Positions 46,650 to 63,432 of a DNA stretch of 64,000 bases are shown here, piece by piece (positions within the stretch are counted from its first letter, which is position 1; the number at the start of each line of letters is the position of its first letter). This DNA comes from Naegleria gruberi. Lineage: Eukaryota. The DNA lies in NCBI GenBank assembly GCA_000004985.1, contig GG738880.1. The stretch is one strand, 5' to 3'. Under the pieces are notes generated by a model. The model was given only the letters and a program-made list of their open reading frames with translations, ran no database searches and had not been told where the DNA came from. The position numbers were made by a program, and so were the translations under genes.

Positions 46650-48690
46650 CATCATGTGAAAAACAATAAAAACATGAAAATATAAGATATCCACGATTTT
46701 CACAAATTATGCTACAAGACTCGAAATTATACATTCAACAACATAATAAACATTATGAATTGTTGTTTTATTGTTGTTTGATTTGTAATTGGGCTATGAA
46801 TCAACTCTGTAGCATGAAATATCGGAACTTGGTAAATTGACAACATGATGAAAATCTGATAATAAATACCTCTCCTACCTACTATTGACCATTCCGAACA
46901 ATAATACATTGACACTTTTCCAACTTGTCCAGTAGATCCAGCAGTGATGATGAATTTAGTGAAAATTTTGACATTTCACCAAAATTACATTGCTAAAAAT
47001 TAATTTCCACAAATACTATTATTATATTGATGGAAAACAATAATGATGATGGTTGGTGAATGATCCGATGATGGAACACCAACTTGGGATTTTCCAGCAT
47101 GAAAAATAAATTCCAATTTCATGATGATAATGAACCAATAAAAATTACTATTATTATTACTATATAGATCATGTTGAGATGATGATGTGAAAGTTTGGTG
47201 GTTTCATGATGTAAAACCACTCCGAAAATCATGATGTCCTCCTTGAGTAGAAGAATGTTGAATATTTTTTTATGAAGTTTTTGTGAGAATGGCGTAGCAG
47301 TTGTATTATTGGTGAAGTTATGGTCTATGTCTTTCAAAATTAAGTCCATCATGATGATAATCCACTAATAAAATTACTACTATTCAGATCATGTTGAGGG
47401 GTTCGATTTATCTCTTGTTTTACTGTAACAAGTATTGCGCCCAAAATTGTTAAGGTACTTCCCGTGTGCTAAACTCAAGCTCCAAAAAAATGTTTGAAAA
47501 TAAGCCACTAACAAACATGCAAGATATTAACTCTGGAAAAGATTATTTAGCGAGTAAAAGAAGGAAGGAATGATGTTATCGGAGAAGGAATTTATCAGTG
47601 ATGATATTGAAATTAATGATAACACAAAAGCTACATCTTCAAAAACACTTTTCAATATTTCATCACCTTCGTTTAGGAAGAGATTGGAACTGGGAGAGGA
47701 TGTGCCATTCTCCAATAATTTTAATAATAATGTAAATAATTCAAACAATATTGAAAAACAACAAACGGAAACAAGTTCATCATCAACTACAACAACACCG
47801 AGACCATCATTCATCAAAGCACCTTCATTACCTTCATTATCTTTTCCTATTAAGAAAAGTTCATCAGTTTCTGATGATGTTAAAGAGATTGAATCTAAAT
47901 TGAATGCTAATTGCAAGAATGGTGTGGAAAGGGCAATGTTATACATGTTGGCAAACCGATTGAATGTCAAGTTGTTGATTGGAGTTCTATTTGTGTTATC
48001 TTTTTTAAATAGCCTTAAAACATTAAGTTTTAATCAGAATATTTTGAGTATTGTCCTATTTCTTGTTCAATTATATACTAACTATCATAGGAAGAATATT
48101 GATATGGCCATGTCCTATGAGGAGACTTTTAAAAGATTGGATGGGCAGGAAATGCAGAGAATGGTTGTTTCCTTGGTTCTCTACACAACCAGAATACTAT
48201 TCCTTCCCGAACATAACATGATGTTTATTCCAGTTCTTTTCCTTTGGTTTGCTGGAGCTAACAAGTTGTACATTTACTCAACTTTTCATGGGCTATTCCC
48301 AACATTTTACACAAGCTTTCTCTACATTATGTGTGCTTGCTACCATTCGTACCATGAGTATATTTTGAATGGATACTCTGCTCGATTCATTGGAATCATT
48401 GAGCAATATACAGTTATGACTGGCTGTGTTTGGATGTTCTCCTATTATTTTATTAATGTGACTGGTTATTTGAAACACAAGGTAGATAAATTGCAAGACA
48501 CTAGAAAAAGGTTGGAATCAGCATTAGACGCTCGTAGTCGTTTCATGGCCCATATTTCACACGAGTTTAGATGTCCAATAATGTCAAGTATAGGGTGCTT
48601 GGAGTTGTTAAAAGAAACTCCATTGAATGAAAAACAAAATGATTTGGTTGACACAATTGTTTCTTCAAATAGTGTTCTTTTGCTTTGATG
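46650..48690. repeat. Segmental duplication unit A (HK promoter region + 5' CDS); paralogous to 48741..50184
   Basis: Direct alignment by eye shows 46650.. matching 48741.. at a roughly constant offset of 2091 nt. After a ~145-bp insertion unique to copy B (48958..49105) the offset becomes 2235 nt. The identity is ~98-99%, with 2-nt and 6-nt indels in the CDS. Confidence 0.8.
47490..48688 (+). CDS. Hybrid histidine kinase, copy A, 5' part (sensor/TM region + HisKA), truncated by scaffold gap
   Basis: ORF 47570..48688 has hydrophobic helices, then ..RSRFMAHISHEFRCPIMSSIGCLELLKETPLNEKQNDLVDTIVSSNSVLL. This is a HisKA H-box with the phospho-accepting His. The sequence runs into the N-gap at 48691. 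The upstream ATG at 47490 (MFENKPLTNMQD..) is put out of frame by a 2-nt indel relative to copy B. Confidence 0.6.
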
Positions 48691-48740
48691 NNNNNNNNNN
48701 NNNNNNNNNNNNNNNNNNNNNNNNNNNNNNNNNNNNNNNN
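48691..48740. other. Assembly gap (50 N) between duplication units A and B
   Basis: Run of N. Confidence 1.
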
Positions 48741-50184
48741 CATCATGTGAAAACAATAAAAACATGAAAATATAAGATATCCACGATTTTCACAAATTTT
48801 GTTACAAGACTCGAAATTATACATTCAACAACATAATAAACATTATGAATTGTTGTTTTATTGTTGTTTGATTTGTAATTGGGCTATGAATCAACTCTGG
48901 TAGCATCAAATATCGGAACTTGGTAAATTGACAACATGATGAAAATCTGATAATAAATATGATGTTTATTATCTATTTAAATAGTAGTACTAAAAGACAT
49001 GATTCAAGTTGGTGAAGTACATGTTGAGTTATGGTCCATGTACTTTTTAAAAATTCACATGTACCTATCCCTATCATAACTTGACCAAAATTGATAAGAG
49101 AAAGTTCTCCTACCTACTATTGACCATTCCGAACAATAATACATTGACACTTTTCCAACTTGTCCAGTAGATCCAGCAGTGATGATGAATTTAGTGAAAA
49201 TTTTGACATTTCACCAAAATTACATTGCTAAAAATTAATTTCCACAAATACTATTATTATATTGATGGAAAACAATAATGATGATGGTTGGTGAATGATC
49301 CGATGATGGAACACCAACTTGGGATTTTCCAGCATGAAAAATAAATTCCAATTTCATGATGATAATGAACCAATAAAAATTACTATTATTATTACTATAT
49401 AGATCATGTTGAGATGATGATGTGAAAGTTTGGTGGTTTCATGATGTAAAACCACTCCGAAAATCATGATGTCCTCCTTGAGTAGAAGAATGTTGAATAT
49501 TTTTTTATGAAGTTTTTGTGAGAATGGCGTAGCAGTTGTATTATTGGTGAAGTTATGGTCTATGTCTTTCAAAATTAAGTCCATCATGATGATAATCCAC
49601 TAATAAAATTACTACTATTCAGATCATGTTGAGGGGTTCGATTTATCTCTTGTTTTACTGTAACAAGTATTGCGCCCAAAATTGTTAAGGTACTTCCCGT
49701 GTGCTAAACTCAAGCTCCAAAAAAATGTTTGAAAATAAGCCACTAACAAACATGCAAGATATTAACTCTGGAAAAGATTATTTAGCGAGTAAGAAGGAAG
49801 GAATGATGTTATCGGAGAAGGAATTTATCAGTGATGATATTGAAATTAATGATAACACAAAAGCTACTTCTTCAAAAACACTTTTCAATATTTCATCACC
49901 TTCGTTTAGGAAGAGATTGGAACTGGGAGAGGATGTACATGTGCCATTCTCCAATAATTTTAATAATAATGTAAATAATTCAAACAATATTGAAAAACAA
50001 CAAACGGAAACAAGTTCATCATCAACTACAACAACACCGAGACCATCATTCATCAAAGCACCATCATTACCTTCATTATCTTTTCCTATTAAGAAAAGTT
50101 CATCAGTTTCTGATGATGTTAAAGAGATTGAATCCAAATTGAATGCTAATTGCAAGAATGGTGTGGAAAGGGCAATGTTATACA
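48741..50184. repeat. Segmental duplication unit B (bounded by N-gaps on both sides)
   Basis: See unit A. The identical small ORFs 47119..47352 and 49354..49587 are part of this duplication. Confidence 0.8.
49725..50184 (+). CDS. Hybrid histidine kinase, copy B, N-terminal fragment, truncated by scaffold gap
   Basis: This fragment is ~98-99% identical to 47490..47950. The ATG at 49725 follows an A7 run and is in frame through MMLSEKEF... It has a 6-nt insertion (..EDVHVPFS..) relative to copy A and ends at the N-gap at 50185. Confidence 0.55.
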
Positions 50185-50569
50185 NNNNNNNNNNNNNNNN
50201 NNNNNNNNNNNNNNNNNNNNNNNNNNNNNNNNNNNNNNNNNNNNNNNNNNNNNNNNNNNNNNNNNNNNNNNNNNNNNNNNNNNNNNNNNNNNNNNNNNNN
50301 NNNNNNNNNNNNNNNNNNNNNNNNNNNNNNNNNNNNNNNNNNNNNNNNNNNNNNNNNNNNNNNNNNNNNNNNNNNNNNNNNNNNNNNNNNNNNNNNNNNN
50401 NNNNNNNNNNNNNNNNNNNNNNNNNNNNNNNNNNNNNNNNNNNNNNNNNNNNNNNNNNNNNNNNNNNNNNNNNNNNNNNNNNNNNNNNNNNNNNNNNNNN
50501 NNNNNNNNNNNNNNNNNNNNNNNNNNNNNNNNNNNNNNNNNNNNNNNNNNNNNNNNNNNNNNNNNNNNN
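50185..50569. other. Assembly gap (385 N) inside HK copy B
   Basis: Run of N. Confidence 1.
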
Positions 50570-51492
50570 ATGGCAAGTGTCAAGACCTGTCACATTGATG
50601 AAAAAAATGAATAGAGAAGATGTTCTTCTAATGTTGCATGATAAACCGAATGAAAATGCAAATAGCTTGTTTGAACTATTGAAAATTAGAATGATGACAA
50701 GCAAAACCTCTAAAATTTCAAATCAATTTACAAAAGCAATTCGTATTGATAATTGTAAACATGTGGAAACGCTTGGAACGCCAAATAAGTATGGAAAGCC
50801 TGCACGAGGACTCAACAACAAATTCTTCTTCAATATTCCGATGGATATTACTATTTCATACAGGCACGAAACAATTTATGTTTGCGACTACAAAAATTAC
50901 AAAATTCAAACATTTGATTTGGCTACCAAACAATTTATCACTTCAATTTCGACAATTCCGACGTGCTTTATCTACATTCAAGTGGACGATCAATTTGATC
51001 AATTATTTGGATTAGGATTTGATCGTTCCTTATATGTGGGAAAATTTGAGAAACCAAGTAAGGGAAGAGGTGGATTAAGTTTTGCAAGTTTGGAACGATT
51101 GAAAATGTCAGTAATGGAAGAATGTGGTCAATTTTCAAAGATTTGTTTGGATAGAGAAATGGGGAGATTATACTTTATGGAAAATTCAAGGCAATTCAGA
51201 ATTGGAGTATTGAGAACGATGGATTTGAGTATTGTAAATTTGATGCAAGTTGATTTTGATGAACAAGATCCAAGTGATGGGGACAAAATATTGTATTTGG
51301 ATGGAAGAGGCAATTTATGTATTCTTTCGTTCCCTCTTGTTAAAAGCATTCCCTTGTCAATTGTGAATTCAAGGAAACAAGCTCACTTTGGCCAATTTGA
51401 AACATTATTGAGTTTACAGAAAAGATTTCCAATGTGTTCAAGATAGTAACTGAGAAATCATCTGGGAATATATTAATTTCTATACCAATTCC
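50570..51492. repeat. Duplicated block carrying the NHL-propeller gene (copy 1); paralogous to 62455..63382
   Basis: tggcaagtgtcaagacctgtca[c/a]attgatgaaaaaaatgaatagagaagatg.. is shared between the two copies. Identity is ~97% apart from the inverted segment. Confidence 0.8.
50607..51446 (+). CDS. NHL-repeat-like beta-propeller protein (copy 1, intact)
   Basis: 279-aa ORF with the ATG after A7. It has repeated blade-like motifs (ETIYVCDYKNYKIQTFDL, RLYFMENSRQFRIGVLRTMDL, ILYLDGRGNLCILSFPL). It lies immediately 3' of the histidine-kinase block in both duplicated copies. Confidence 0.5.
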   Translation: MNREDVLLMLHDKPNENANSLFELLKIRMMTSKTSKISNQFTKAIRIDNCKHVETLGTPNKYGKPARGLNNKFFFNIPMDITISYRHETIYVCDYKNYKIQTFDLATKQFITSISTIPTCFIYIQVDDQFDQLFGLGFDRSLYVGKFEKPSKGRGGLSFASLERLKMSVMEECGQFSKICLDREMGRLYFMENSRQFRIGVLRTMDLSIVNLMQVDFDEQDPSDGDKILYLDGRGNLCILSFPLVKSIPLSIVNSRKQAHFGQFETLLSLQKRFPMCSR

Positions 51493-51638
51493 TTTAACAT
51501 CAACTCCTATTACCATTCAAAAAGGTCATCATCAAACATGGATCTTTCATTCTGCTTCTGGAATGGAAATTAATGAAATTGAAGGTGAATTATTAATTGT
51601 AGAAAAGAAATCCTTCACTATTAAAATATTCAAATAAT

Positions 51639-54202
51639 TTACATGTAATCTACAACAGTTGTATGAGGTGGATAAACTTCCTGAACTTGATTGTTGACAG
51701 TTGAATAATATTGCTTGAACAATTCAAATCTGGTGTTCTTTCCAGAAGATTCCAATATGTGAGCAAAATACCCAATGCTCTTAATCAATTTTCTGGCAGG
51801 ATACGATTTGATGTATTCATCATTTTGAACAACAGCTGTCAAATTAGCTTCATAATCTCTGAGCATGTTAATAATTTCATCATTATTCAACCCTTCAAAG
51901 TTCTTGTCATAGAAGAAATATTTTCCAAACTCTGAGAATTTCTGATTTGCCTTTTGCTGTTCCAACTCGTACATCCATTCTTGAAATTTTGTTACAATTT
52001 TTGTAAACCTTTCAACTTACCATCACCTTCAATAGTATTTTCCTTTTCAACTTCATAAACAACCGAAACTTTTCCTTCTTGTGAATTTTCAACAACTTCC
52101 ATCAACTTGTCAACTGGTCTGGATACAAACTTTTTCAGAGTTGACTCATCCATTGTTCCCTCATCAGCCAACACATCACATCTCAAGTCGTCTGCCAAAA
52201 AAGCAAGTTTTTCAGCATTGATAGGAACTGAACCAACAACAGAAAATGTTCTAAATGAACTAGTTCCCAAATTTCCTGCATAGCACTTTCCACTACTGAC
52301 TCCAATGGCACATCTGATATGGGTTTTCGATGTTTCATTGATTGTTACTAATAATTTTCTCAATTTCAAAGCAGCTTCCAAAGCCAAAACATTTGACGAT
52401 TTTCGACCATTTCCTTCCACAGACGAAACATAAATCTGATAATCATCCACAGTAATAACTTGAAAATCACCTTGTATAGATTTAGAAACAGCACTCAACC
52501 CAGAAACAATCTTTGAAAATATGTGTCCAATATCAGCAACATTCAAATCTGTTGAAAAATCAATTAATTTGATTCTTACAACTGCTCCTTGTTTACAATT
52601 CAGACCAATTTTGAAAAGAGAATTTCCCACTTCTTGAACTTTGGATGCCATTGAGGAAGTTCTTGAACTATTGTTACTAAAATGACGACTTCCATGAGAT
52701 TCCAAATCTATTGAGGCAGCATCACTATTCGAAACTGGGTGATTCTTATGTTTCTTTGATTTGGTGTTGGCTTGGGATTCATCTGTTTTTTTGGTATTTT
52801 CTTCTTTCATATTTCTCAATTGTAAAAATACACTTTCTGGAATAAATGTCTTAATTTCGTTTAACCATACTGTCATTTCATATAAATAAAGGTAAATCAA
52901 ATCGACTTCTTTAAACTTGCTTGCAGTAATATTCACCTGATCTAGTTCCATAGTTTTGATTTTCATAAATTCTCTTTCTAAAATTGTAAATGGATTTGTG
53001 ACAATGTGTCCAATAGTGATAGACATGATTACACCAACAATGATAATCAAAATGGTAATACCAACAGATACTCCAGTTGTAATATTTGTTACCATTTCAA
53101 CTTCTTGCTTATCAACCACAATGAAAACATTCCATTCCAAGTTGACCAATGTGAAATTTGACTTTACAATGAAAAAACCATCAAAGTCAATAAAAATTGG
53201 TGTGTTAGTCCACCCCTTATAATTCTGATAAACCCTGTTCAATAAACTTCCAGAACCCTTATCAATCAAGTCAAATAACGAAACTCTAGAACTTCCATCC
53301 AAAGCAGTAGTATTGATATTTCCACCAATGACAAGATTATTGGTTTCTGCCACAATCACATAACCACTAGTGAGTACTTGTACTGTTTTCAAAAAGCTTT
53401 CAATAATTCTCAATGAAATATTCGTTTTTGTAATGCCAACTACCTTTTTAATTCCATTGCTATAATAGGTAGGATCATATAATTTGGCACAATAGTAAGT
53501 TGTATAACTTGGATTGCCAGGAATTGCATAAGGAATGCCGAATACACCATCTAATCCCAAAGAGGAATAAAAACCAAAAGTAGTTTTCCAATAACTTTGA
53601 GCATTCACTTCATAATTAGGAGATGCCTTGACCAGTGACTTGGCAGTTGTGTTAGGAGTTGAAGTATCCAATGAAATTGCATATAACATAAATTCAGTCG
53701 TTGGTGTATGATACCAAACAACAATTTCATTGGGTGGAGCTCCGTAAACATTGACACTGTCAAGACTGTCATTAAAAAATAAACCAATTCCGTATGGCTT
53801 GAAAGTGTTGTAATATTTGTAAAGATAGGCAAGCGATGGTTGACGAGGAACAAGTCCTAAATTGTAATCCTCAGCCATTGACTCAGTTGCTGAAATATAA
53901 GGTTTCAGTTGACCGTTCATATAGTTCAGTACTGAACCACTGATGGTATGCATCAATTGAGTTGATAAGGAACTCAGGGCTTCTCGAGATCCTATGAAAG
54001 AAGATAACCAAATTAAAATTGAACAGCAAACTAATAGAGAAGTGATTAGAATAATGATAAATGTTCTAACCGAAATGATTCCACCACATGTTGTTGGTTT
54101 GATTGGAGCTATTTTGGTTTTCTCCTCGGTTTCGTCTTCGTTGAGGAGAGGATTTTGTTCTTTGAGACTGTCTAGGGATGCTGTGAATGGTTGTATTTTC
54201 AT
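51639..54202 (-). CDS. Receptor-like 2-TM membrane protein with cyclase-homology-like cytoplasmic domain (paralog 2); 2 exons (52021..54202, 51639..51979)
   Basis: 736-aa ORF plus a 111-aa ORF joined by a 41-nt intron (51980..52020). The donor is GTAAGT and the acceptor is ..TTTCAAG, at phase 1. The junction ..TIEGDG-E-WMYELEQQKAN.. aligns with the contiguous ..VAQDEWLYELDNLNSN.. of paralog 1. The cytoplasmic region is ..VVRIKLIDFSTDL..ITVDDYQIYV..IRCAIGVSSGKCYAGNLGTSSFRTFSVVGSVPINAEKLAFLADDL. Both putative metal-binding Asp positions appear retained. Confidence 0.55.
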
Positions 54203-55452
54203 GATTAGTTTTGAATAGTTTTTTTAAAAATTTGAAATCATTTGAAAGGTAGTTTGATTCAATCTCGTTTGAAAATTTAGAAATCTCACCACATATGCGT
54301 TTATGGTGGAGATAACAACAATTACCTGTTTGAATATTTCCTTAACTTCTCCATTCTATTCACAACCCATCATATACTGTTAACTTTAAACGAAAATTTA
54401 CAGCGCTCATTTAGAATGATTCAACTCTGTTCCCATCACTTGATGTTAAACAACCAAATGTTTTTTCTACTTTGAAAGAGAATCTTCCTTAAAATTCGAT
54501 AGGTGACAGAAATAAAAGGGTGTAGGTGTAAAAACGTCTCTTGTATCAATAACGACCTGAGAGAACAATAGGTGACAGAAAAGAAAAAGATGTTGTTGCA
54601 TTTCAGCTATCTCCCTTGATTTTTTTTGCTATAGTAAATTCGTTTATTTAAACATAGTTGTTTGGTAAATTACTTAGTGAAGATTCATATCATTGATTAT
54701 ATTTCTTATCGTCTATTAATGATGTAAATATGATGTTTTCATTTCTTATATCTGTGGTCAGGTTCTCGGCGCATTTTTGTGATGCTTCCAAAAAACATGG
54801 AATGCTCCCAAAGCTGATTTACCTGTAGGGGTAATTGGATGCGCCAATAACACCGATTTATTACTTAAGCAAATTCACTCAACTTCAACAAAGCGTATCT
54901 CAATAACAACACTGGATGTTAGAGAAACATACCGTATGGTCATTATTAATTATGTTAACAATCATAATATCAAGTTTGTTACAGATTTGGCTCTTTACTT
55001 ATCGAGAAAAGTGATTTCAAAATTTTCATATGTGGTAGTAAGACGAGCATGTTTTCTTGGTTAATACAAATAACTGATATTCAATAAAACAGAATCTTGT
55101 AGAAAACATCAATTAGAACAAGAATAATAAATAATATTTTTATTTCACTAAGTATTAAATTTAATATTTCCTTTTTTGTAAGGAGCATTGCAAAAATACG
55201 GGAAAAACATTTCCACAGATATTGATAGATATTTAAAGGTTAAGGATAACGGTCAAATTGAGTTGAATGGAAGTGAATATTGAGATATGTATACTACTGT
55301 TGAAGAAGTATCACCTTCACTATAATTACTGACATGAGTATAACAATTGAACATATGATTCCTGTATCAATAATTCATTATTCAATGATTTTGATATGAT
55401 GGGGTTGGATTAGATATCCACTTTTGGGTTTGGATCCCATGTCAACCCCTAT

Positions 55453-58400
55453 NNNNNNNNNNNNNNNNNNNNNNNNNNNNNNNNNNNNNNNNNNNNNNNN
55501 NNNNNNNNNNNNNNNNNNNNNNNNNNNNNNNNNNNNNNNNNNNNNNNNNNNNNNNNNNNNNNNNNNNNNNNNNNNNNNNNNNNNNNNNNNNNNNNNNNNN
55601 NNNNNNNNNNNNNNNNNNNNNNNNNNNNNNNNNNNNNNNNNNNNNNNNNNNNNNNNNNNNNNNNNNNNNNNNNNNNNNNNNNNNNNNNNNNNNNNNNNNN
55701 NNNNNNNNNNNNNNNNNNNNNNNNNNNNNNNNNNNNNNNNNNNNNNNNNNNNNNNNNNNNNNNNNNNNNNNNNNNNNNNNNNNNNNNNNNNNNNNNNNNN
55801 NNNNNNNNNNNNNNNNNNNNNNNNNNNNNNNNNNNNNNNNNNNNNNNNNNNNNNNNNNNNNNNNNNNNNNNNNNNNNNNNNNNNNNNNNNNNNNNNNNNN
55901 NNNNNNNNNNNNNNNNNNNNNNNNNNNNNNNNNNNNNNNNNNNNNNNNNNNNNNNNNNNNNNNNNNNNNNNNNNNNNNNNNNNNNNNNNNNNNNNNNNNN
56001 NNNNNNNNNNNNNNNNNNNNNNNNNNNNNNNNNNNNNNNNNNNNNNNNNNNNNNNNNNNNNNNNNNNNNNNNNNNNNNNNNNNNNNNNNNNNNNNNNNNN
56101 NNNNNNNNNNNNNNNNNNNNNNNNNNNNNNNNNNNNNNNNNNNNNNNNNNNNNNNNNNNNNNNNNNNNNNNNNNNNNNNNNNNNNNNNNNNNNNNNNNNN
56201 NNNNNNNNNNNNNNNNNNNNNNNNNNNNNNNNNNNNNNNNNNNNNNNNNNNNNNNNNNNNNNNNNNNNNNNNNNNNNNNNNNNNNNNNNNNNNNNNNNNN
56301 NNNNNNNNNNNNNNNNNNNNNNNNNNNNNNNNNNNNNNNNNNNNNNNNNNNNNNNNNNNNNNNNNNNNNNNNNNNNNNNNNNNNNNNNNNNNNNNNNNNN
56401 NNNNNNNNNNNNNNNNNNNNNNNNNNNNNNNNNNNNNNNNNNNNNNNNNNNNNNNNNNNNNNNNNNNNNNNNNNNNNNNNNNNNNNNNNNNNNNNNNNNN
56501 NNNNNNNNNNNNNNNNNNNNNNNNNNNNNNNNNNNNNNNNNNNNNNNNNNNNNNNNNNNNNNNNNNNNNNNNNNNNNNNNNNNNNNNNNNNNNNNNNNNN
56601 NNNNNNNNNNNNNNNNNNNNNNNNNNNNNNNNNNNNNNNNNNNNNNNNNNNNNNNNNNNNNNNNNNNNNNNNNNNNNNNNNNNNNNNNNNNNNNNNNNNN
56701 NNNNNNNNNNNNNNNNNNNNNNNNNNNNNNNNNNNNNNNNNNNNNNNNNNNNNNNNNNNNNNNNNNNNNNNNNNNNNNNNNNNNNNNNNNNNNNNNNNNN
56801 NNNNNNNNNNNNNNNNNNNNNNNNNNNNNNNNNNNNNNNNNNNNNNNNNNNNNNNNNNNNNNNNNNNNNNNNNNNNNNNNNNNNNNNNNNNNNNNNNNNN
56901 NNNNNNNNNNNNNNNNNNNNNNNNNNNNNNNNNNNNNNNNNNNNNNNNNNNNNNNNNNNNNNNNNNNNNNNNNNNNNNNNNNNNNNNNNNNNNNNNNNNN
57001 NNNNNNNNNNNNNNNNNNNNNNNNNNNNNNNNNNNNNNNNNNNNNNNNNNNNNNNNNNNNNNNNNNNNNNNNNNNNNNNNNNNNNNNNNNNNNNNNNNNN
57101 NNNNNNNNNNNNNNNNNNNNNNNNNNNNNNNNNNNNNNNNNNNNNNNNNNNNNNNNNNNNNNNNNNNNNNNNNNNNNNNNNNNNNNNNNNNNNNNNNNNN
57201 NNNNNNNNNNNNNNNNNNNNNNNNNNNNNNNNNNNNNNNNNNNNNNNNNNNNNNNNNNNNNNNNNNNNNNNNNNNNNNNNNNNNNNNNNNNNNNNNNNNN
57301 NNNNNNNNNNNNNNNNNNNNNNNNNNNNNNNNNNNNNNNNNNNNNNNNNNNNNNNNNNNNNNNNNNNNNNNNNNNNNNNNNNNNNNNNNNNNNNNNNNNN
57401 NNNNNNNNNNNNNNNNNNNNNNNNNNNNNNNNNNNNNNNNNNNNNNNNNNNNNNNNNNNNNNNNNNNNNNNNNNNNNNNNNNNNNNNNNNNNNNNNNNNN
57501 NNNNNNNNNNNNNNNNNNNNNNNNNNNNNNNNNNNNNNNNNNNNNNNNNNNNNNNNNNNNNNNNNNNNNNNNNNNNNNNNNNNNNNNNNNNNNNNNNNNN
57601 NNNNNNNNNNNNNNNNNNNNNNNNNNNNNNNNNNNNNNNNNNNNNNNNNNNNNNNNNNNNNNNNNNNNNNNNNNNNNNNNNNNNNNNNNNNNNNNNNNNN
57701 NNNNNNNNNNNNNNNNNNNNNNNNNNNNNNNNNNNNNNNNNNNNNNNNNNNNNNNNNNNNNNNNNNNNNNNNNNNNNNNNNNNNNNNNNNNNNNNNNNNN
57801 NNNNNNNNNNNNNNNNNNNNNNNNNNNNNNNNNNNNNNNNNNNNNNNNNNNNNNNNNNNNNNNNNNNNNNNNNNNNNNNNNNNNNNNNNNNNNNNNNNNN
57901 NNNNNNNNNNNNNNNNNNNNNNNNNNNNNNNNNNNNNNNNNNNNNNNNNNNNNNNNNNNNNNNNNNNNNNNNNNNNNNNNNNNNNNNNNNNNNNNNNNNN
58001 NNNNNNNNNNNNNNNNNNNNNNNNNNNNNNNNNNNNNNNNNNNNNNNNNNNNNNNNNNNNNNNNNNNNNNNNNNNNNNNNNNNNNNNNNNNNNNNNNNNN
58101 NNNNNNNNNNNNNNNNNNNNNNNNNNNNNNNNNNNNNNNNNNNNNNNNNNNNNNNNNNNNNNNNNNNNNNNNNNNNNNNNNNNNNNNNNNNNNNNNNNNN
58201 NNNNNNNNNNNNNNNNNNNNNNNNNNNNNNNNNNNNNNNNNNNNNNNNNNNNNNNNNNNNNNNNNNNNNNNNNNNNNNNNNNNNNNNNNNNNNNNNNNNN
58301 NNNNNNNNNNNNNNNNNNNNNNNNNNNNNNNNNNNNNNNNNNNNNNNNNNNNNNNNNNNNNNNNNNNNNNNNNNNNNNNNNNNNNNNNNNNNNNNNNNNN

Positions 58401-60125
58401 NNNNNNNNNNNNNNNNNNNNNNNNNNNNNNNNNNNNNNNNNNNNNNNNNNNNNNNNNNNNNNNNNNNNNNNNNNNNNNNNNNNNNNNNNNNNNNNNNNNN
58501 NNNNNNNNNNNNNNNNNNNNNNNNNNNNNNNNNNNNNNNNNNNNNNNNNNNNNNNNNNNNNNNNNNNNNNNNNNNNNNNNNNNNNNNNNNNNNNNNNNNN
58601 NNNNNNNNNNNNNNNNNNNNNNNNNNNNNNNNNNNNNNNNNNNNNNNNNNNNNNNNNNNNNNNNNNNNNNNNNNNNNNNNNNNNNNNNNNNNNNNNNNNN
58701 NNNNNNNNNNNNNNNNNNNNNNNNNNNNNNNNNNNNNNNNNNNNNNNNNNNNNNNNNNNNNNNNNNNNNNNNNNNNNNNNNNNNNNNNNNNNNNNNNNNN
58801 NNNNNNNNNNNNNNNNNNNNNNNNNNNNNNNNNNNNNNNNNNNNNNNNNNNNNNNNNNNNNNNNNNNNNNNNNNNNNNNNNNNNNNNNNNNNNNNNNNNN
58901 NNNNNNNNNNNNNNNNNNNNNNNNNNNNNNNNNNNNNNNNNNNNNNNNNNNNNNNNNNNNNNNNNNNNNNNNNNNNNNNNNNNNNNNNNNNNNNNNNNNN
59001 NNNNNNNNNNNNNNNNNNNNNNNNNNNNNNNNNNNNNNNNNNNNNNNNNNNNNNNNNNNNNNNNNNNNNNNNNNNNNNNNNNNNNNNNNNNNNNNNNNNN
59101 NNNNNNNNNNNNNNNNNNNNNNNNNNNNNNNNNNNNNNNNNNNNNNNNNNNNNNNNNNNNNNNNNNNNNNNNNNNNNNNNNNNNNNNNNNNNNNNNNNNN
59201 NNNNNNNNNNNNNNNNNNNNNNNNNNNNNNNNNNNNNNNNNNNNNNNNNNNNNNNNNNNNNNNNNNNNNNNNNNNNNNNNNNNNNNNNNNNNNNNNNNNN
59301 NNNNNNNNNNNNNNNNNNNNNNNNNNNNNNNNNNNNNNNNNNNNNNNNNNNNNNNNNNNNNNNNNNNNNNNNNNNNNNNNNNNNNNNNNNNNNNNNNNNN
59401 NNNNNNNNNNNNNNNNNNNNNNNNNNNNNNNNNNNNNNNNNNNNNNNNNNNNNNNNNNNNNNNNNNNNNNNNNNNNNNNNNNNNNNNNNNNNNNNNNNNN
59501 NNNNNNNNNNNNNNNNNNNNNNNNNNNNNNNNNNNNNNNNNNNNNNNNNNNNNNNNNNNNNNNNNNNNNNNNNNNNNNNNNNNNNNNNNNNNNNNNNNNN
59601 NNNNNNNNNNNNNNNNNNNNNNNNNNNNNNNNNNNNNNNNNNNNNNNNNNNNNNNNNNNNNNNNNNNNNNNNNNNNNNNNNNNNNNNNNNNNNNNNNNNN
59701 NNNNNNNNNNNNNNNNNNNNNNNNNNNNNNNNNNNNNNNNNNNNNNNNNNNNNNNNNNNNNNNNNNNNNNNNNNNNNNNNNNNNNNNNNNNNNNNNNNNN
59801 NNNNNNNNNNNNNNNNNNNNNNNNNNNNNNNNNNNNNNNNNNNNNNNNNNNNNNNNNNNNNNNNNNNNNNNNNNNNNNNNNNNNNNNNNNNNNNNNNNNN
59901 NNNNNNNNNNNNNNNNNNNNNNNNNNNNNNNNNNNNNNNNNNNNNNNNNNNNNNNNNNNNNNNNNNNNNNNNNNNNNNNNNNNNNNNNNNNNNNNNNNNN
60001 NNNNNNNNNNNNNNNNNNNNNNNNNNNNNNNNNNNNNNNNNNNNNNNNNNNNNNNNNNNNNNNNNNNNNNNNNNNNNNNNNNNNNNNNNNNNNNNNNNNN
60101 NNNNNNNNNNNNNNNNNNNNNNNNN
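55453..60125. other. Assembly gap (4673 N)
   Basis: This is a run of N. The long poly-X ORFs across it are artefacts. Confidence 1.
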
Positions 60126-61057
60126 ATAAAATGAGCGAGTTGGAGCATAATCTTTGATTTTATGTCAAAGGTCTATAGTAAAATGATAGAGTTGACAACT
60201 CAATATCTACTGAACCAAAATTAATGAAATTGATATTATATGCTAATTAGAGTGTCTACATATCATGGTATTAATTTCAGTGAAAATGGAGTTGTTTCTA
60301 TATCTTTCAGATTTCCAGCCATTCTCTTGAAATATCACCATGTACTATCTACTGAATGCATTTGTTGAAATGAAATTATATAATTTGATGAAATTACACT
60401 TTATTTGAGATGTAGAACACGATATTATCATTTATTTTGAGATTGGTAACTTTTCCTATAGTGTCATCCTTAATTGTCTTAATTGACTAAAAAAGGTCAA
60501 GGAGATATTTCAAAATATAAAATAAATTATATTTTCGAGATGTACTATTGATTTCCAATCGATTGATATGTATTTTGTTGATTGACGAAGTGGTTCTCTA
60601 TTTGAAGATTTCCTCCTTGATCTTTAAAGACAACCTTGAAATTTCACCCTTTACCTTACTGAAAGATAGAATATTCTCCAAAATGTCTGAAAATTGAACC
60701 ATATACATTATTTGAGATGTTGAACATGGTGGTAAAGTTGCATAGAGTGGTCATTTTCCAGATTTTCATCCATGTCCACAGTTGACTAATTGGTATGATA
60801 GAGTTGAAATCATGAACATGAAAGTGAAAATAAACTTGATTTTCTATCTCTACTCGTAGAGTGAAGCATTTTCATGTATATATTGTTGGTTGAAGTGATG
60901 TATTTGATAGAGTTAGTGTGACTTGTCTTTCCTTAAAGTCAACCATAAAATATCAACATTTACCTTCCCATTATACCATTTCTGATTATTAAGACATGAA
61001 ATTGAATTCTATATCATTATATATCATGTACATCATTTTGGTAAAGTTTTAATAGGT

Positions 61058-61356
61058 GGTTTGGGTTTGGGTTTGGGTTTGGGTTTGGGTTTGGGTTTGG
61101 GTTTGGGTTTGGGTTTGGGTTTGGGTTTGGGTTTGGGTTTGGGTTTGGGTTTGGGTTTGGGTTTGGGTTTGGGTTTGGGTTTGGGTTTGGGTTTGGGTTT
61201 GGGTTTGGGTTTGGGTTTGGGTTTGGGTTTGGGTTTGGGTTTGGGTTTGGGTTTGGGTTTGGGTTTGGGTTTGGGTTGGGTTTGGGTTTGGGTTTGGGTT
61301 TGGGTTTGGGTTTGGGTTTGGGTTTGGGTTTGGGTTTGGGTTTGGGTTTGGGTTAA
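61058..61356. repeat. (GGGTTT)n hexanucleotide microsatellite, ~50 units, one imperfection; telomere-repeat-like
   Basis: The array is a direct read of ggtttgggtttggg... from ~61058 to the N-gap at 61357. The six-frame ORFs across it (VWVW.., GLGL/GFGF.., KPKP.., TQTQ..) are artefacts of the repeat. Confidence 0.9.
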
Positions 61357-61406
61357 NNNNNNNNNNNNNNNNNNNNNNNNNNNNNNNNNNNNNNNNNNNN
61401 NNNNNN
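61357..61406. other. Assembly gap (50 N) between the (GGGTTT)n array and the HK HATPase exon
   Basis: Run of N. Confidence 1.
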
Positions 61407-62445
61407 AAGGATGAGGATCCAAATGTAACAACCTTTAATTTGTTCGAATCGTTGAAGGCCATGACGAACATTATTTCAGGTTACGCTTCCACATTTAAGG
61501 TAAATTTGAAATTGGAAATTGATTCCAAGATTAAGGACATGTTCGTTCACTCAAATTCTTCCAAACTCCACCAAATATTATTAAATTTATTGACAAACGC
61601 TGTAAAGGCTTCAAAGCAAGGTGATTCTGTATGGTTAAAAAGTAGACTATTGGAAGATTATGGAGATTCTGTAACTGTCAGATTTATTTGTGAAGATACT
61701 GGATGCGGAATTCCACAAAATTTGATTTCTTCTATTTTTGAACCATTCGTGCAATTACAAAACAGCTCACAATCCAAAGTGCCAAGTTCTGGACTCGGAC
61801 TCACTACTGTTTCACATCTAATCAAATCGATGGATGGTCAAATTAGCGTTCTCTCTCAAGTCGGAAAAGGAAGTATTTTCACAGTTGATTTGCCATTCAA
61901 ATTAAAACCAAGCAAGTTCCAAGAAAATAGTGATCGTAATGGTAATCCAGAAGATAGGCGATCAAAACTTCACCTTAGCGTTCATAAGAGCTATTTAACA
62001 ATGATGACAGACTTGGAAAAGAATGAAAAAGAAAAGGAGAAAAAGTCAAAGTTTAATTCTAAAATATTGATTGCAGAAGATAATCCTATTAACAGAAAAG
62101 TTATTGTCAAGATGATAAATAGTTTAGGGCACGAAACAGATTATGTTTGTGATGGAAAGGAACTGGTTGAGAACTTTAATCCAAAAACTCACAAGGTTGT
62201 AATTACAGATATGGTATGTTGAAAAATCAATATTTAATGTATGCTCATCTAATTAGAATATGCCAAATATGAATGGATTGGAAGCTACTAAGGTTCTAAG
62301 AGAAAAATATGGAGATTCATTCAAGATTTATTTATTAACAGGTAATGTGACAGTCTCTTTGACAGATGTTGATGATATGGGTTTATTGGATGGCATTCTA
62401 ACAAAGCCCTGTTCTAAACAAGAGCTTGAGAAATGTATTACGTAA
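61407..62445 (+). CDS. Hybrid histidine kinase, copy C, 3' part: HATPase_c + receiver domain; exons 61407..62213 and 62257..62445 (5' end lost in gap)
   Basis: The N-box is LHQILLNLLTNAVKAS, with G1 ICEDTGCGIPQ and G2 SGLGLTTVSHLI. The receiver domain is KILIAEDNPINRKVIVKMINSLGHETDYVCDGKELVENF..KVVITDM. Donor GTATGT follows, with a 43-nt intron (62214..62256) ending AATTAG. Translation then continues NMPNMNGLEATKVLREKYGDSFKIYLLTGN..LDGILTKPCSKQELEKCIT. The conserved D and MPxMxG/KP motifs are present. Confidence 0.75.
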
Positions 62446-62454
62446 AGTGAATTT

Positions 62455-63382
62455 GGCAAGTGTCAAGACCTGTCAAATTGATGAAAAAAAATGAATAGAG
62501 AAGATGTTCTTCTAATGTTGCATGATAAACCGAATGAAAATGCAAATAGCTTGTTTGAACTATTGAAAATTAGAATGATGACAAGCAAAACCTCTAAAAT
62601 TTCAAATCAATTTACAAAAGTAATTCGTATTGATAATTGTAAACATGTGGAAACGCTTGGAACGCCAAATAAATATGGAAAGCCTGCACGAGGACTCAAC
62701 AACAAATTCTTCTTCAATATTCCGATGGATATTACTATTTCATACAGGCACGAAACAATTTATGTTTGCGACTACAAAAATTACAAAATTCAAACATTTG
62801 ATTTGGCTACCAAACAATTTATCACTTCAATTTCGACAATTCCGACGTGCTTTATCTACATTCAAGTGGATGATCAATTTGATCAATTATTTGGATTAGG
62901 ATTTGATCGTTCCTTATATGTGGGAAAATTTGAGAAACCAAGTAAGGGAAGAGGTGGATTAAGTTTTGCAAGTTTGGAAAGTATAATCTTCCCATTTCTC
63001 TATCCATACAAATCTTTGAAAATTGACCACATTCTTCCATTAGTGACATTTTCAATCGTTTATGGAAAATTCAAGGCAATTCAGAATTGGAGTATTGAGA
63101 ACGATGGATTTGAATATTGTAAATTTGATGCAAGTTGATTTTGATGAACAAGATCCAAGTGATGGGGACAAAGTATTGTATTTGGATGGAAGAGGCAATT
63201 TATGTATTCTTTCATTCCCTCTTGTTAAAAGTATACCCTTGTCAATTGTGAATTCAAGGAAACAAGCTCACTTTGGCCAATTTGAAACATTATTTGAGTT
63301 TACAGAAAAGATTTCAAATGTGTTCAAGATAGCAACTGAGCAATCGTCTGGGAATATATTAATTTCCATACCAATTCCTTTG
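62455..63382. repeat. Duplicated block carrying the NHL-propeller pseudo-copy (copy 2), ending in an N-gap
   Basis: See 50570..51492. Confidence 0.8.
62491..63382 (+). pseudogene. NHL-repeat-like beta-propeller gene, copy 2, disrupted by an ~82-bp internal inversion and truncated by a gap
   Basis: This copy is ~97% identical to 50607..51470. The segment 62980..63063 is the reverse complement of 51096..51177, which breaks the ORF into 62491..63138 and 63062..63382+. Confidence 0.5.
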
Positions 63383-63432
63383 NNNNNNNNNNNNNNNNNN
63401 NNNNNNNNNNNNNNNNNNNNNNNNNNNNNNNN
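63383..63432. other. Assembly gap (50 N)
   Basis: Run of N. Confidence 1.

What the first reader, a model, noticed from the sequence alone, without database searches (positions are those of the whole stretch)
62980..63063. ~82-bp micro-inversion distinguishing the two NHL-gene paralogs
Copy 2 (62980..63063) is the reverse complement of copy 1 (51096..51177), with 3 mismatches. It is embedded in otherwise collinear, ~97%-identical sequence. The inversion breaks the reading frame in copy 2 but not in copy 1. Small inversions like this are a signature of replication-template switching at a short inverted repeat, or of a mis-assembled bubble.
Basis: seen in the sequence. Interest (0 to 1): 0.55.

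Follow-up and report, generated by a model that had tools for sequence, protein, structure and literature searches.

The report
80-bp inversion between two assembled gene copies
A stretch of about 80 bases really is flipped between two near-identical versions of a gene segment in the Naegleria gruberi draft genome, but the two versions are probably one chromosome-end locus assembled twice, so this is most likely an ordinary small inversion that differs between the two chromosome copies.

Summary
Window 62980..63058 is the exact-position reverse complement of 51096..51174: a 79-nt core, 83 nt counting the self-complementary AA/TT ends, with 3 mismatches and BLAST E about 1e-32. The flanks are collinear at 99.0% and 96.6% identity. 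Copy 2 is one base longer.

The framing as "two paralogs" is probably wrong. The window is a gap-ridden part of the Naegleria gruberi NEG-M draft scaffold. Copy 1 begins exactly at an N-gap edge and copy 2 ends exactly at one. The contig holding copy 2 sits beyond a 49-unit (TTTGGG)n array, the candidate N. gruberi telomere. Its 5' end continues the histidine-kinase core that breaks off 12 kb upstream. The simplest reading is one subtelomeric locus assembled twice, as two haplotypes, with copy 2's contig mis-scaffolded.

The 16 substitutions between the copies are biased toward synonymous changes (9:7, pN/pS 0.19, p = 0.0014). They are therefore real variation, not read error.

A single switch-and-return template switch with 2-nt microhomology at each jump reproduces copy 2 from copy 1 exactly, including the extra base. 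No flanking inverted repeat exists.

No reads or independent assemblies could be reached, so a cloning artefact remains possible. Interest is low to moderate.

The parts
51096..51174 (+). Copy 1 core segment (79 nt) in the coding orientation. It encodes ...RLKMSVMEECGQFSKICLDREMGRLY... of the NHL-like ORF.
62980..63058 (-). Copy 2 core segment (79 nt), the reverse complement of 51096..51174 with 3 mismatches. The coding sense is now on the minus strand (minus-strand ORF 62852..63055 reads MKMSLMEECGQFSKICMDREMGRLYF).
51094..51095 (+). Left junction microhomology AA (copy 1). Its partner is TT at 51175..51176. In copy 2 the equivalents are AA at 62978..62979 and TTT at 63059..63061, which includes the extra base.
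50570..51495 (+). Copy 1 of the duplicated segment, the head of contig C. It starts exactly at the edge of the 385-N gap.
62454..63382 (+). Copy 2 of the duplicated segment, the tail of contig E. It ends exactly at the edge of a 50-N gap.
61407..63382 (+). Contig E. It holds HATPase_c (about 61557..61901), a receiver domain (about 62064..62442, with a 43-nt intron at 62214..62256) and then the NHL-like ORF from 62491. It is probably mis-scaffolded and belongs between contigs A and C.
48530..48690 (+). HisKA domain at the 3' end of contig A, cut off by the gap at 48691. Fused to the start of E it aligns to solved histidine kinases as one core with about 11-13 residues missing.
61058..61355 (+). 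(GGGTTT)n array of about 49 units, with the G-rich strand running 5'->3' toward the gap. This is the candidate N. gruberi telomeric repeat at the end of contig D.
   Evidence: PMC3622300
48741..50184 (+). Contig B, bounded by gaps on both sides. It is a second near-identical copy (97.7-98.2% in the two BLAST blocks) of 46650..47945, differing by a 144-bp indel, a 6-bp in-frame indel and a 2-bp indel. It is a second haplotig-like duplicate in the same region.
51408..51409 (+). TT in copy 1 where copy 2 has TTT (about 63293..63295). This 1-nt difference truncates the copy 1 ORF at 51446.

Best explanation
The flipped 79-nt segment is a real sequence difference between two versions of a single subtelomeric locus of Naegleria gruberi NEG-M. 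These are most likely the two haplotypes of a heterozygous diploid. The locus holds a hybrid histidine kinase (HisKA, HATPase_c, receiver) followed immediately by an NHL-like ORF.

How the assembly came about (inferred): the assembler could not merge reads across the inversion. It left two overlapping contigs, with E running through the inverted allele and C starting on the uninverted one. The scaffolder then parked contig E, and contig F, past the telomere array instead of between A and C.

How the inversion arose (inferred): one switch-and-return template switch during replication or break repair. The nascent strand ending in ...GGAA paired with TT at 51175..51176, copied 51174 back to 51094 from the opposite strand, and re-annealed through TT to resume at 51176. 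This yields an exact in-place inversion plus one base. Copy 1 orientation is ancestral because it is the coding one.

The inverted allele leaves the NHL-like ORF out of frame and truncates it about 130 codons early.

What is shown: the inversion, the junction anatomy, the contig and gap layout, the telomere-type array, the kinase continuity from A to E, and the synonymous bias of the differences. What is inferred: allelic status, the mechanism, and that the inversion exists in the organism rather than in one clone.
For: 1. The inversion and its junctions are read directly. BLAST gives E about 1e-32.
2. The window is N. gruberi: P0001, 'predicted protein [Naegleria gruberi]', is a gene model built on copy 1.
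3. The only duplicates in the whole 64 kb are A/B and C-head/E-tail. All of them abut N gaps and no segment occurs more than twice.
4. Contig A's end fused to contig E's start forms one DHp+CA kinase core with about 11-13 residues missing, matching the 50-N gap after A.
5. E lies beyond (TTTGGG)49, the candidate N. gruberi telomere repeat (PMC3622300).
6. No N. gruberi gene model holds a second HATPase/REC copy; the best hits are 44% identical.
7. Substitutions between the copies are 9 synonymous and 7 nonsynonymous, pN/pS 0.19, p = 0.0014. These are two real, selected sequences.
8. The four-point template-switch model reproduces copy 2 exactly, with 2-nt ambiguity at each switch. A pure cut-and-flip cannot, because the lengths are 161 and 162.
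9. Heterozygosity of N. gruberi is reported in the literature (PMC9928731).
10. The adjacency of receiver end and NHL-like ORF is conserved in a related environmental contig, so E is not chimeric.
Against: - No reads, depth or independent assembly could be obtained, so allele, paralog and artefact cannot be separated directly.
- Microhomology is only 2 nt. All 'definite' human-chimp microinversions have flanking inverted repeats of at least 3 nt and are much shorter, 17-33 nt (PMC8755829).
- The scaffold spacing between A and C (1879 nt) only roughly fits the roughly 1100 nt needed.
- Both versions carry a frame-breaking lesion, which is odd for two alleles of a gene under purifying selection unless one lesion is a consensus error.
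- The TTTGGG array could be interstitial.
Confidence: 0.5

Rival explanations
1. The two copies are true paralogs. A segmental duplicate of the 3' part of the kinase/NHL-like gene sits either 12 kb downstream as drawn, or on another chromosome end and was pulled into this scaffold. A real micro-inversion has turned copy 2 into a pseudogene.
For: Contig breaks at A|gap, D|gap|E and E|gap|F could mark repeat boundaries, where assemblers typically break. Subtelomeric regions commonly carry duplicated genes (general knowledge). Synonymous divergence of about 5% is high for alleles. The sequence after copy 2 (contig F) is unrelated to the sequence after copy 1.
Against: The array as drawn leaves no intact kinase gene anywhere. 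Copy 2's HATPase/REC has no HisKA upstream, since contig D is non-coding and ends in a telomere-type array. E's start picks up the kinase exactly where A stops. No second HATPase/REC sequence is seen in the window or among the gene models. Both limits of the duplication coincide with contig ends.
Confidence: 0.25
2. The inversion is not in the Naegleria genome. It arose in a single shotgun clone or read (rearrangement in E. coli or in vitro) at a low-coverage contig end and was frozen into the consensus.
For: The inversion lies 320 nt from the end of contig E, where coverage is usually thin. The region is the worst-assembled part of the window, with 5 gaps in 15 kb. Both copies contain single-base frame errors of the kind seen in thin consensus. 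A's ORF also hits a stop 2 nt before its gap.
Against: The E tail differs from C by 16 substitutions with a clear synonymous bias, so it is genuine alternative sequence, not noise. An in-place inversion that returns to the original strand is not the usual cloning chimera. Without flanking inverted repeats such events should be far rarer over a few dozen bacterial generations than over the time needed for 2% divergence (inference).
Confidence: 0.2
3. The segment is a programmed, reversible invertible switch that turns the C-terminal NHL-like domain on and off.
For: Two orientations of a discrete segment lie inside a sensor-gene locus near a chromosome end.
Against: There are no flanking inverted-repeat recombination sites. 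The +1 base and 3 internal mismatches argue for a one-off event followed or accompanied by mutation. No recombinase gene is evident nearby.
Confidence: 0.02

Closest known systems
Short template-switch mutations (four-point model; Loytynoja & Goldman 2017, PMC5453318)
   Same: A fragment is replaced in place by its reverse complement. One switch-and-return event explains what would otherwise look like a dense mutation cluster plus an indel. The model includes a case that inverts a fragment only. The event here is reproduced exactly by that model.
   Different: No outgroup sequence is available to polarise the event, and no read-level support is available.
[quoted passage not shown]
   Same: Pure or nearly pure reverse-complement replacement of a short segment between about 99%-identical sequences. 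A few cases carry one or two extra mismatches or gaps.
   Different: Those are 17-33 nt and always flanked by inverted repeats of 3-75 nt that juxtapose the breakpoints. This one is 79-83 nt with only a 2-3 nt AA/TT(T) repeat.
Uncollapsed heterozygosity (haplotigs) in draft diploid assemblies
   Same: Near-identical duplicates that start or end at scaffold gaps, never more than two copies. Each contains a structural difference that blocks merging: a 144-bp indel in B and the inversion in E.
   Different: Contig E is not purely redundant. Its first 1047 nt are the only copy of the HATPase/REC region, and it was placed 12 kb away rather than next to its partner.
Hairpin-loop flip inversions (for example in chloroplast intergenic spacers) and site-specific invertase switches
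   Same: A small segment is found in two orientations.
   Different: Both kinds need flanking inverted repeats (stems or recombination sites). None is present here. This segment is coding and the change shifts the frame.

Membership tests
Template-switch (switch-and-return) micro-inversion | Segment replaced in place by its reverse complement, with collinear flanks | tested here: met
   79-nt core, 3 mismatches, flanks 99.0% and 96.6% identical.
Template-switch (switch-and-return) micro-inversion | The derived sequence is reproduced by one reverse-complement copy between four switch points, with no untemplated bases | tested here: met
   nine equivalent solutions give exactly the 3 internal mismatches and explain the +1 base. 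A pure flip is impossible (161 against 162 nt).
Template-switch (switch-and-return) micro-inversion | Inverted repeat or microhomology at the switch points | tested here: inconclusive
   Only 2 nt at each switch (AA/TT). This is below the 3-75 nt seen in all definite human-chimp cases.
Template-switch (switch-and-return) micro-inversion | Present in the organism's DNA, with independent read support | not testable with these tools
   No reads are available. Exact-protein look-ups and metagenome scans found no independent assembly.
Haplotig / uncollapsed allele in a draft assembly | The duplicate abuts contig ends or gaps and a single tiling path exists | tested here: met
   Copy 1 starts at gap edge 50570 and copy 2 ends at gap edge 63382. 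A-E-C tiles one kinase/NHL-like locus.
Haplotig / uncollapsed allele in a draft assembly | Half-depth read coverage on each version | not testable with these tools
   No read data.
Haplotig / uncollapsed allele in a draft assembly | The organism is heterozygous | not tested
   Literature only: heterozygosity in N. gruberi is cited in PMC9928731. The primary genome paper is not held.
Paralogous segmental duplication | Each copy is embedded in its own unique flanks on both sides | tested here: not met
   Copy 1 has no left flank (gap) and copy 2 has no right flank (gap). Copy 2's contig lies beyond a telomere-type array.
Inverted-repeat-flanked invertible element (hairpin flip or invertase switch) | Flanking inverted repeats adjoining the breakpoints | tested here: not met
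   no inverted repeat adjoins both breakpoints. The nearest 7-8 nt arms pair with unrelated positions.
NHL-repeat beta-propeller protein (Pfam PF01436) | Pfam NHL match above the gathering score | tested here: not met
   One repeat at residues 75-103, E 0.036, 14.5 bits against a cutoff of 20. Distant phmmer hits are bona fide multi-repeat NHL proteins that match mainly residues 65-118. 'NHL-like' is fair; membership is unproven.

The most novel reading that the evidence does not exclude
The inversion is a genuine heterozygous in-place inversion of about 80 nt inside a coding exon of a subtelomeric sensor-kinase/NHL locus in N. gruberi, made by a double template switch with only 2-nt microhomology. 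It would be two to three times longer than the 'definite' primate microinversions and would lack the flanking inverted repeats thought to be required for them. It would also show that such events are large enough to break a diploid Sanger assembly.
Probability: 0.5. Interest if true: 0.3.

Novelty: new member of a known kind. Interest (0 to 1): 0.22.

Why it matters
For mutation biology, a clean 80-nt switch-and-return inversion without flanking inverted repeats would be a useful data point on how little homology template switching needs.

For users of the N. gruberi reference the practical lesson is larger. This scaffold end is mis-assembled: contigs sit beyond a telomere array, allelic contigs appear as apparent paralogs, a hybrid histidine kinase is split over contigs 12 kb apart, and one gene model (P0001) is spliced across an N gap. 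Counts of 'paralogs', pseudogenes and kinases from this region should not be trusted.

Tried and rejected
- Exact-protein look-ups for independent assemblies (cyclase ORF, P0001, copy 2 ORF, copy 1 ORF) found nothing on record.
- Two metagenome scans, one for relatives of the copy 1 protein and one for an exact 24-mer of the shared left flank, found nothing.
- The primary N. gruberi genome paper and a review are not held, so assembly method and heterozygosity figures could not be checked.
- A search for junction-flanking inverted repeats found none adjoining both breakpoints. This rejects hairpin-flip and invertase-type mechanisms.
- A de Bruijn-style bubble mis-traversal is rejected because it needs flanking inverted repeats of k-mer length.
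- Tandem-repeat origin of the 144-bp indel between contigs A and B is not supported.
- An outgroup for polarity was sought. The only close relative, P0016 on the 623-bp contig L001, covers residues 3-92 and then runs into unrelated sequence with a copia-like motif. It does not reach the inverted segment.
- A 57-nt intron (62442..62498) that would fuse the receiver domain to the NHL-like ORF in frame was considered. The donor is not conserved in L001, where a stop codon also precedes the spacer, so this stays unresolved.
- Two of the three mismatches inside the flipped segment are complement-type transversions (G/C and T/A), against 1 of 13 outside. My hand calculation gives Fisher p of about 0.07, so nothing was built on it.

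Full report
**1. Observation**

The two regions were read directly.
- Copy 1 reads ...AAGTTTGGAA|CGATTGAAAATG...GAGATTATACT|TTATGGAAAA.
- Copy 2 reads ...AAGTTTGGAA|AGTATAATCTTC...TTTTCAATCG|TTTATGGAAAA.

The 79-nt core 62980..63058 is the reverse complement of 51096..51174 with 3 mismatches. BLAST extends the match to 83 nt (62978..63060 against 51176..51094, 96.4%, E 4e-33) because the ends AA...TT are self-complementary.

The flanks are collinear. 62454..62979 matches 50571..51095 at 99.0%, and 63059..63381 matches 51174..51495 at 96.6%.

Copy 2 carries one extra T. ORF 62491..63138 therefore reads through the flipped segment, emerges out of frame and stops.

Copy 1 has its own 1-nt frame break: TT at 51408..51409 where copy 2 has TTT. 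This ends its ORF at 51446.

**2. Where the window comes from**

The only database protein close to the ORF is P0001, 'predicted protein [Naegleria gruberi]', on a 416,450-bp scaffold. Its sequence is the N-terminus encoded on contig B joined to copy 1 across the 385-N gap. The window is therefore the N. gruberi NEG-M draft assembly, and that gene model is an artefact of the gap.

The window contains 5,208 N in five gaps, all between 48.7 and 63.4 kb:
- 48691-48740 (50 N)
- 50185-50569 (385 N)
- 55453-60125 (4673 N)
- 61357-61406 (50 N)
- 63383-63432 (50 N)

I name the contigs as follows:

| Contig | Coordinates |
|---|---|
| A | up to 48690 |
| B | 48741-50184 |
| C | 50570-55452 |
| D | 60126-61356 |
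| E | 61407-63382 |
| F | 63433 onward |

**3. Are the two copies paralogs?**

Copy 1 is the first 926 nt of contig C. Copy 2 is the last 929 nt of contig E. Both outer limits of the 'duplication' are therefore contig ends.

The only other duplicate in the whole window is contig B. It is gap-bounded on both sides and 97.7-98.2% identical (in the two BLAST blocks) to 46650..47945 inside contig A. It differs from A by a 144-bp indel, a 6-bp in-frame indel and a 2-bp indel. Nothing occurs more than twice.

Contig A ends inside a HisKA domain. Contig E begins with the segment just before HATPase_c and continues into a receiver domain. Fusing the end of A to the start of E gives a sequence that aligns end to end with solved histidine kinases. 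The target shows about 11-13 extra residues exactly at the junction. So E follows A with a gap of a few tens of bases.

Contig D is non-coding. It ends in about 49 perfect GGGTTT units with the G-rich strand pointing at the gap. TTTGGG is the candidate telomeric repeat of N. gruberi (PMC3622300). E and F are thus scaffolded beyond what looks like a chromosome end.

No N. gruberi protein model matches E's HATPase/REC region. The best hits are 44% identical environmental sequences, so no second copy is visible.

A related environmental contig (L001) shows the same adjacency: the receiver-domain end, a short spacer, then the NHL-like ORF. E is therefore not chimeric.

The simplest layout is one subtelomeric locus, A-E-C. 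B and the E-tail/C-head overlap are then second versions of the same sequence.

**4. Are the differences real?**

After undoing the inversion and the two 1-nt indels, the copies differ by 16 substitutions in 296 codons. Nine are synonymous and seven nonsynonymous (pS 0.051, pN 0.0098, ratio 0.19). The excess of synonymous changes has a binomial p of 0.0014.

Random read errors would not respect codon positions. The two versions are therefore distinct biological sequences that diverged under purifying selection in the copy 1 reading frame. This also makes copy 1 orientation the ancestral, coding one.

The A7/A8 length difference near the start of the overlap lies in the non-coding spacer upstream of the ORF's start codon.

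Heterozygosity of N. gruberi is reported in the literature (PMC9928731). I could not read the primary genome paper.

**5. Mechanism**

No inverted repeat adjoins the breakpoints. Only AA on the left and TT(T) on the right are present.

I enumerated all four-point switch-and-return solutions. Nine equivalent ones reproduce copy 2 from copy 1 with only the 3 internal mismatches. Point 1 falls at 51093-51095 with point 2 at 51176-51174. Point 3 falls at 51096-51094 with point 4 at 51174-51176. This means 2 nt of microhomology at each jump and no untemplated base, and the +1 base falls out of the model. A simple cut-and-flip cannot give the observed length.

This matches the 'inversion of a fragment only' case of the four-point model (PMC5453318). 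It differs from the definite human-chimp microinversions, which are 17-33 nt and always flanked by inverted repeats of 3-75 nt (PMC8755829). That paper's alternative, microhomology-mediated break-induced replication, would also fit.

An overlap assembler cannot create such a structure from reads that lack it, because the junctions share only 2-3 nt. At least one physical read must therefore carry it (inference).

**6. Real or artefact?**

I could not reach reads or any independent assembly. The exact-protein look-ups and two metagenome scans found nothing.

Points in favour of a real event:
- The carrier sequence is a genuine alternative allele.
- The event is not the usual kind of cloning chimera.
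- An unmergeable structural difference explains why two overlapping contigs were left.

Points in favour of an artefact:
- The inversion lies 320 nt from a contig end in the worst-assembled part of the window.
- Both versions carry single-base frame errors.
- Contig A itself ends with a stop codon 2 nt before its gap.

My estimates are:
- 0.5 for a real inversion between two haplotypes of one locus.
- 0.25 for a real inversion between true paralogs, possibly from another chromosome end.
- 0.2 for a clone or read artefact.
- 0.02 for a programmed switch.

**7. The gene**

The ORF has one sub-threshold Pfam NHL repeat (E 0.036). An exhaustive phmmer search finds 307 proteins at E <= 0.001, mostly matching residues 65-118 through several of their own repeats. 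The five multi-repeat hits I sampled are strong NHL-repeat proteins. 'NHL-like' is reasonable, but membership is not established.

Whether the ORF is a separate gene starting 46 nt after the kinase stop codon, or is fused to the kinase by a 57-nt intron (62442..62498), is unresolved.

**8. Verdict**

The sequence observation is correct. A template switch is the best mechanism, but there is no flanking inverted repeat. The 'paralogs' are most likely one locus assembled twice in a mis-scaffolded chromosome end.

This is a new example of a known kind of mutation, of modest interest. It is chiefly useful as a flag on the quality of this part of the reference.

Noticed in passing
window 61058..61355: About 49 tandem GGGTTT units end contig D at an N gap, with the G-rich strand pointing outward. 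TTTGGG is the candidate N. gruberi telomere repeat (PMC3622300). Two more contigs (E and F) follow it in the scaffold, so the scaffold probably runs past a chromosome end.
   Followed up: partly
window 48741..50184 vs 46650..47945: Gap-bounded contig B is a second copy (97.7-98.2% identical in the two BLAST blocks) of the promoter and N-terminal region of the histidine-kinase gene. It has a 144-bp indel, a 6-bp in-frame indel (HV inserted) and a 2-bp indel that changes the apparent start of the ORF. It looks like an alternative haplotype contig.
   Followed up: partly
window 49728..51446 (protein P0001): The public N. gruberi gene model P0001 (402 aa) joins the N-terminus encoded on contig B to the NHL-like ORF of contig C across the 385-N gap. 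It skips the whole kinase core and is almost certainly a chimeric model.
   Followed up: partly
window 51408..51409 (copy 1) vs ~63293..63295 (copy 2): TT against TTT. Copy 1 has a 1-nt deletion that ends its ORF at 51446, while the alternative frame stays open for about 76 more codons to about 51636. This is either a consensus error or a second frame-breaking variant.
   Followed up: partly
window 48683..48690: The ORF of contig A hits TGA two bases before the gap, in the middle of the HisKA domain. This probably reflects poor sequence at the contig end.
   Followed up: no
window 62214..62256 and 62442..62498: A 43-nt GT...AG intron restores the receiver motif ...ITDM|NMPNMNG. A possible 57-nt intron would fuse the receiver domain in frame to the NHL-like ORF, but its donor is not conserved in the related contig L001.
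   Followed up: partly
window 51992..54202 (minus strand): A 736-aa ORF convergent with the NHL-like ORF has a sub-threshold adenylate/guanylate cyclase catalytic domain (Pfam PF00211, E 0.0015, 18.6 bits against a cutoff of 21.9).
   Followed up: no
L001 413..623: In the 623-bp environmental contig that carries the closest relative of the NHL-like ORF, homology stops after '...ELIYV'. The frame continues with GYLFTCEGATISW...ILAMHEASQASVWLRS, which from memory resembles the RNase H end of copia-type retrotransposon polyproteins. This could be an insertion or a chimeric contig.
   Followed up: no
window 62980..63058: Two of the three mismatches inside the flipped segment are complement-type transversions (G/C and T/A), against 1 of 13 substitutions outside. 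My hand calculation gives Fisher p of about 0.07. This is possibly error-prone synthesis during the event, but it is not significant.
   Followed up: partly
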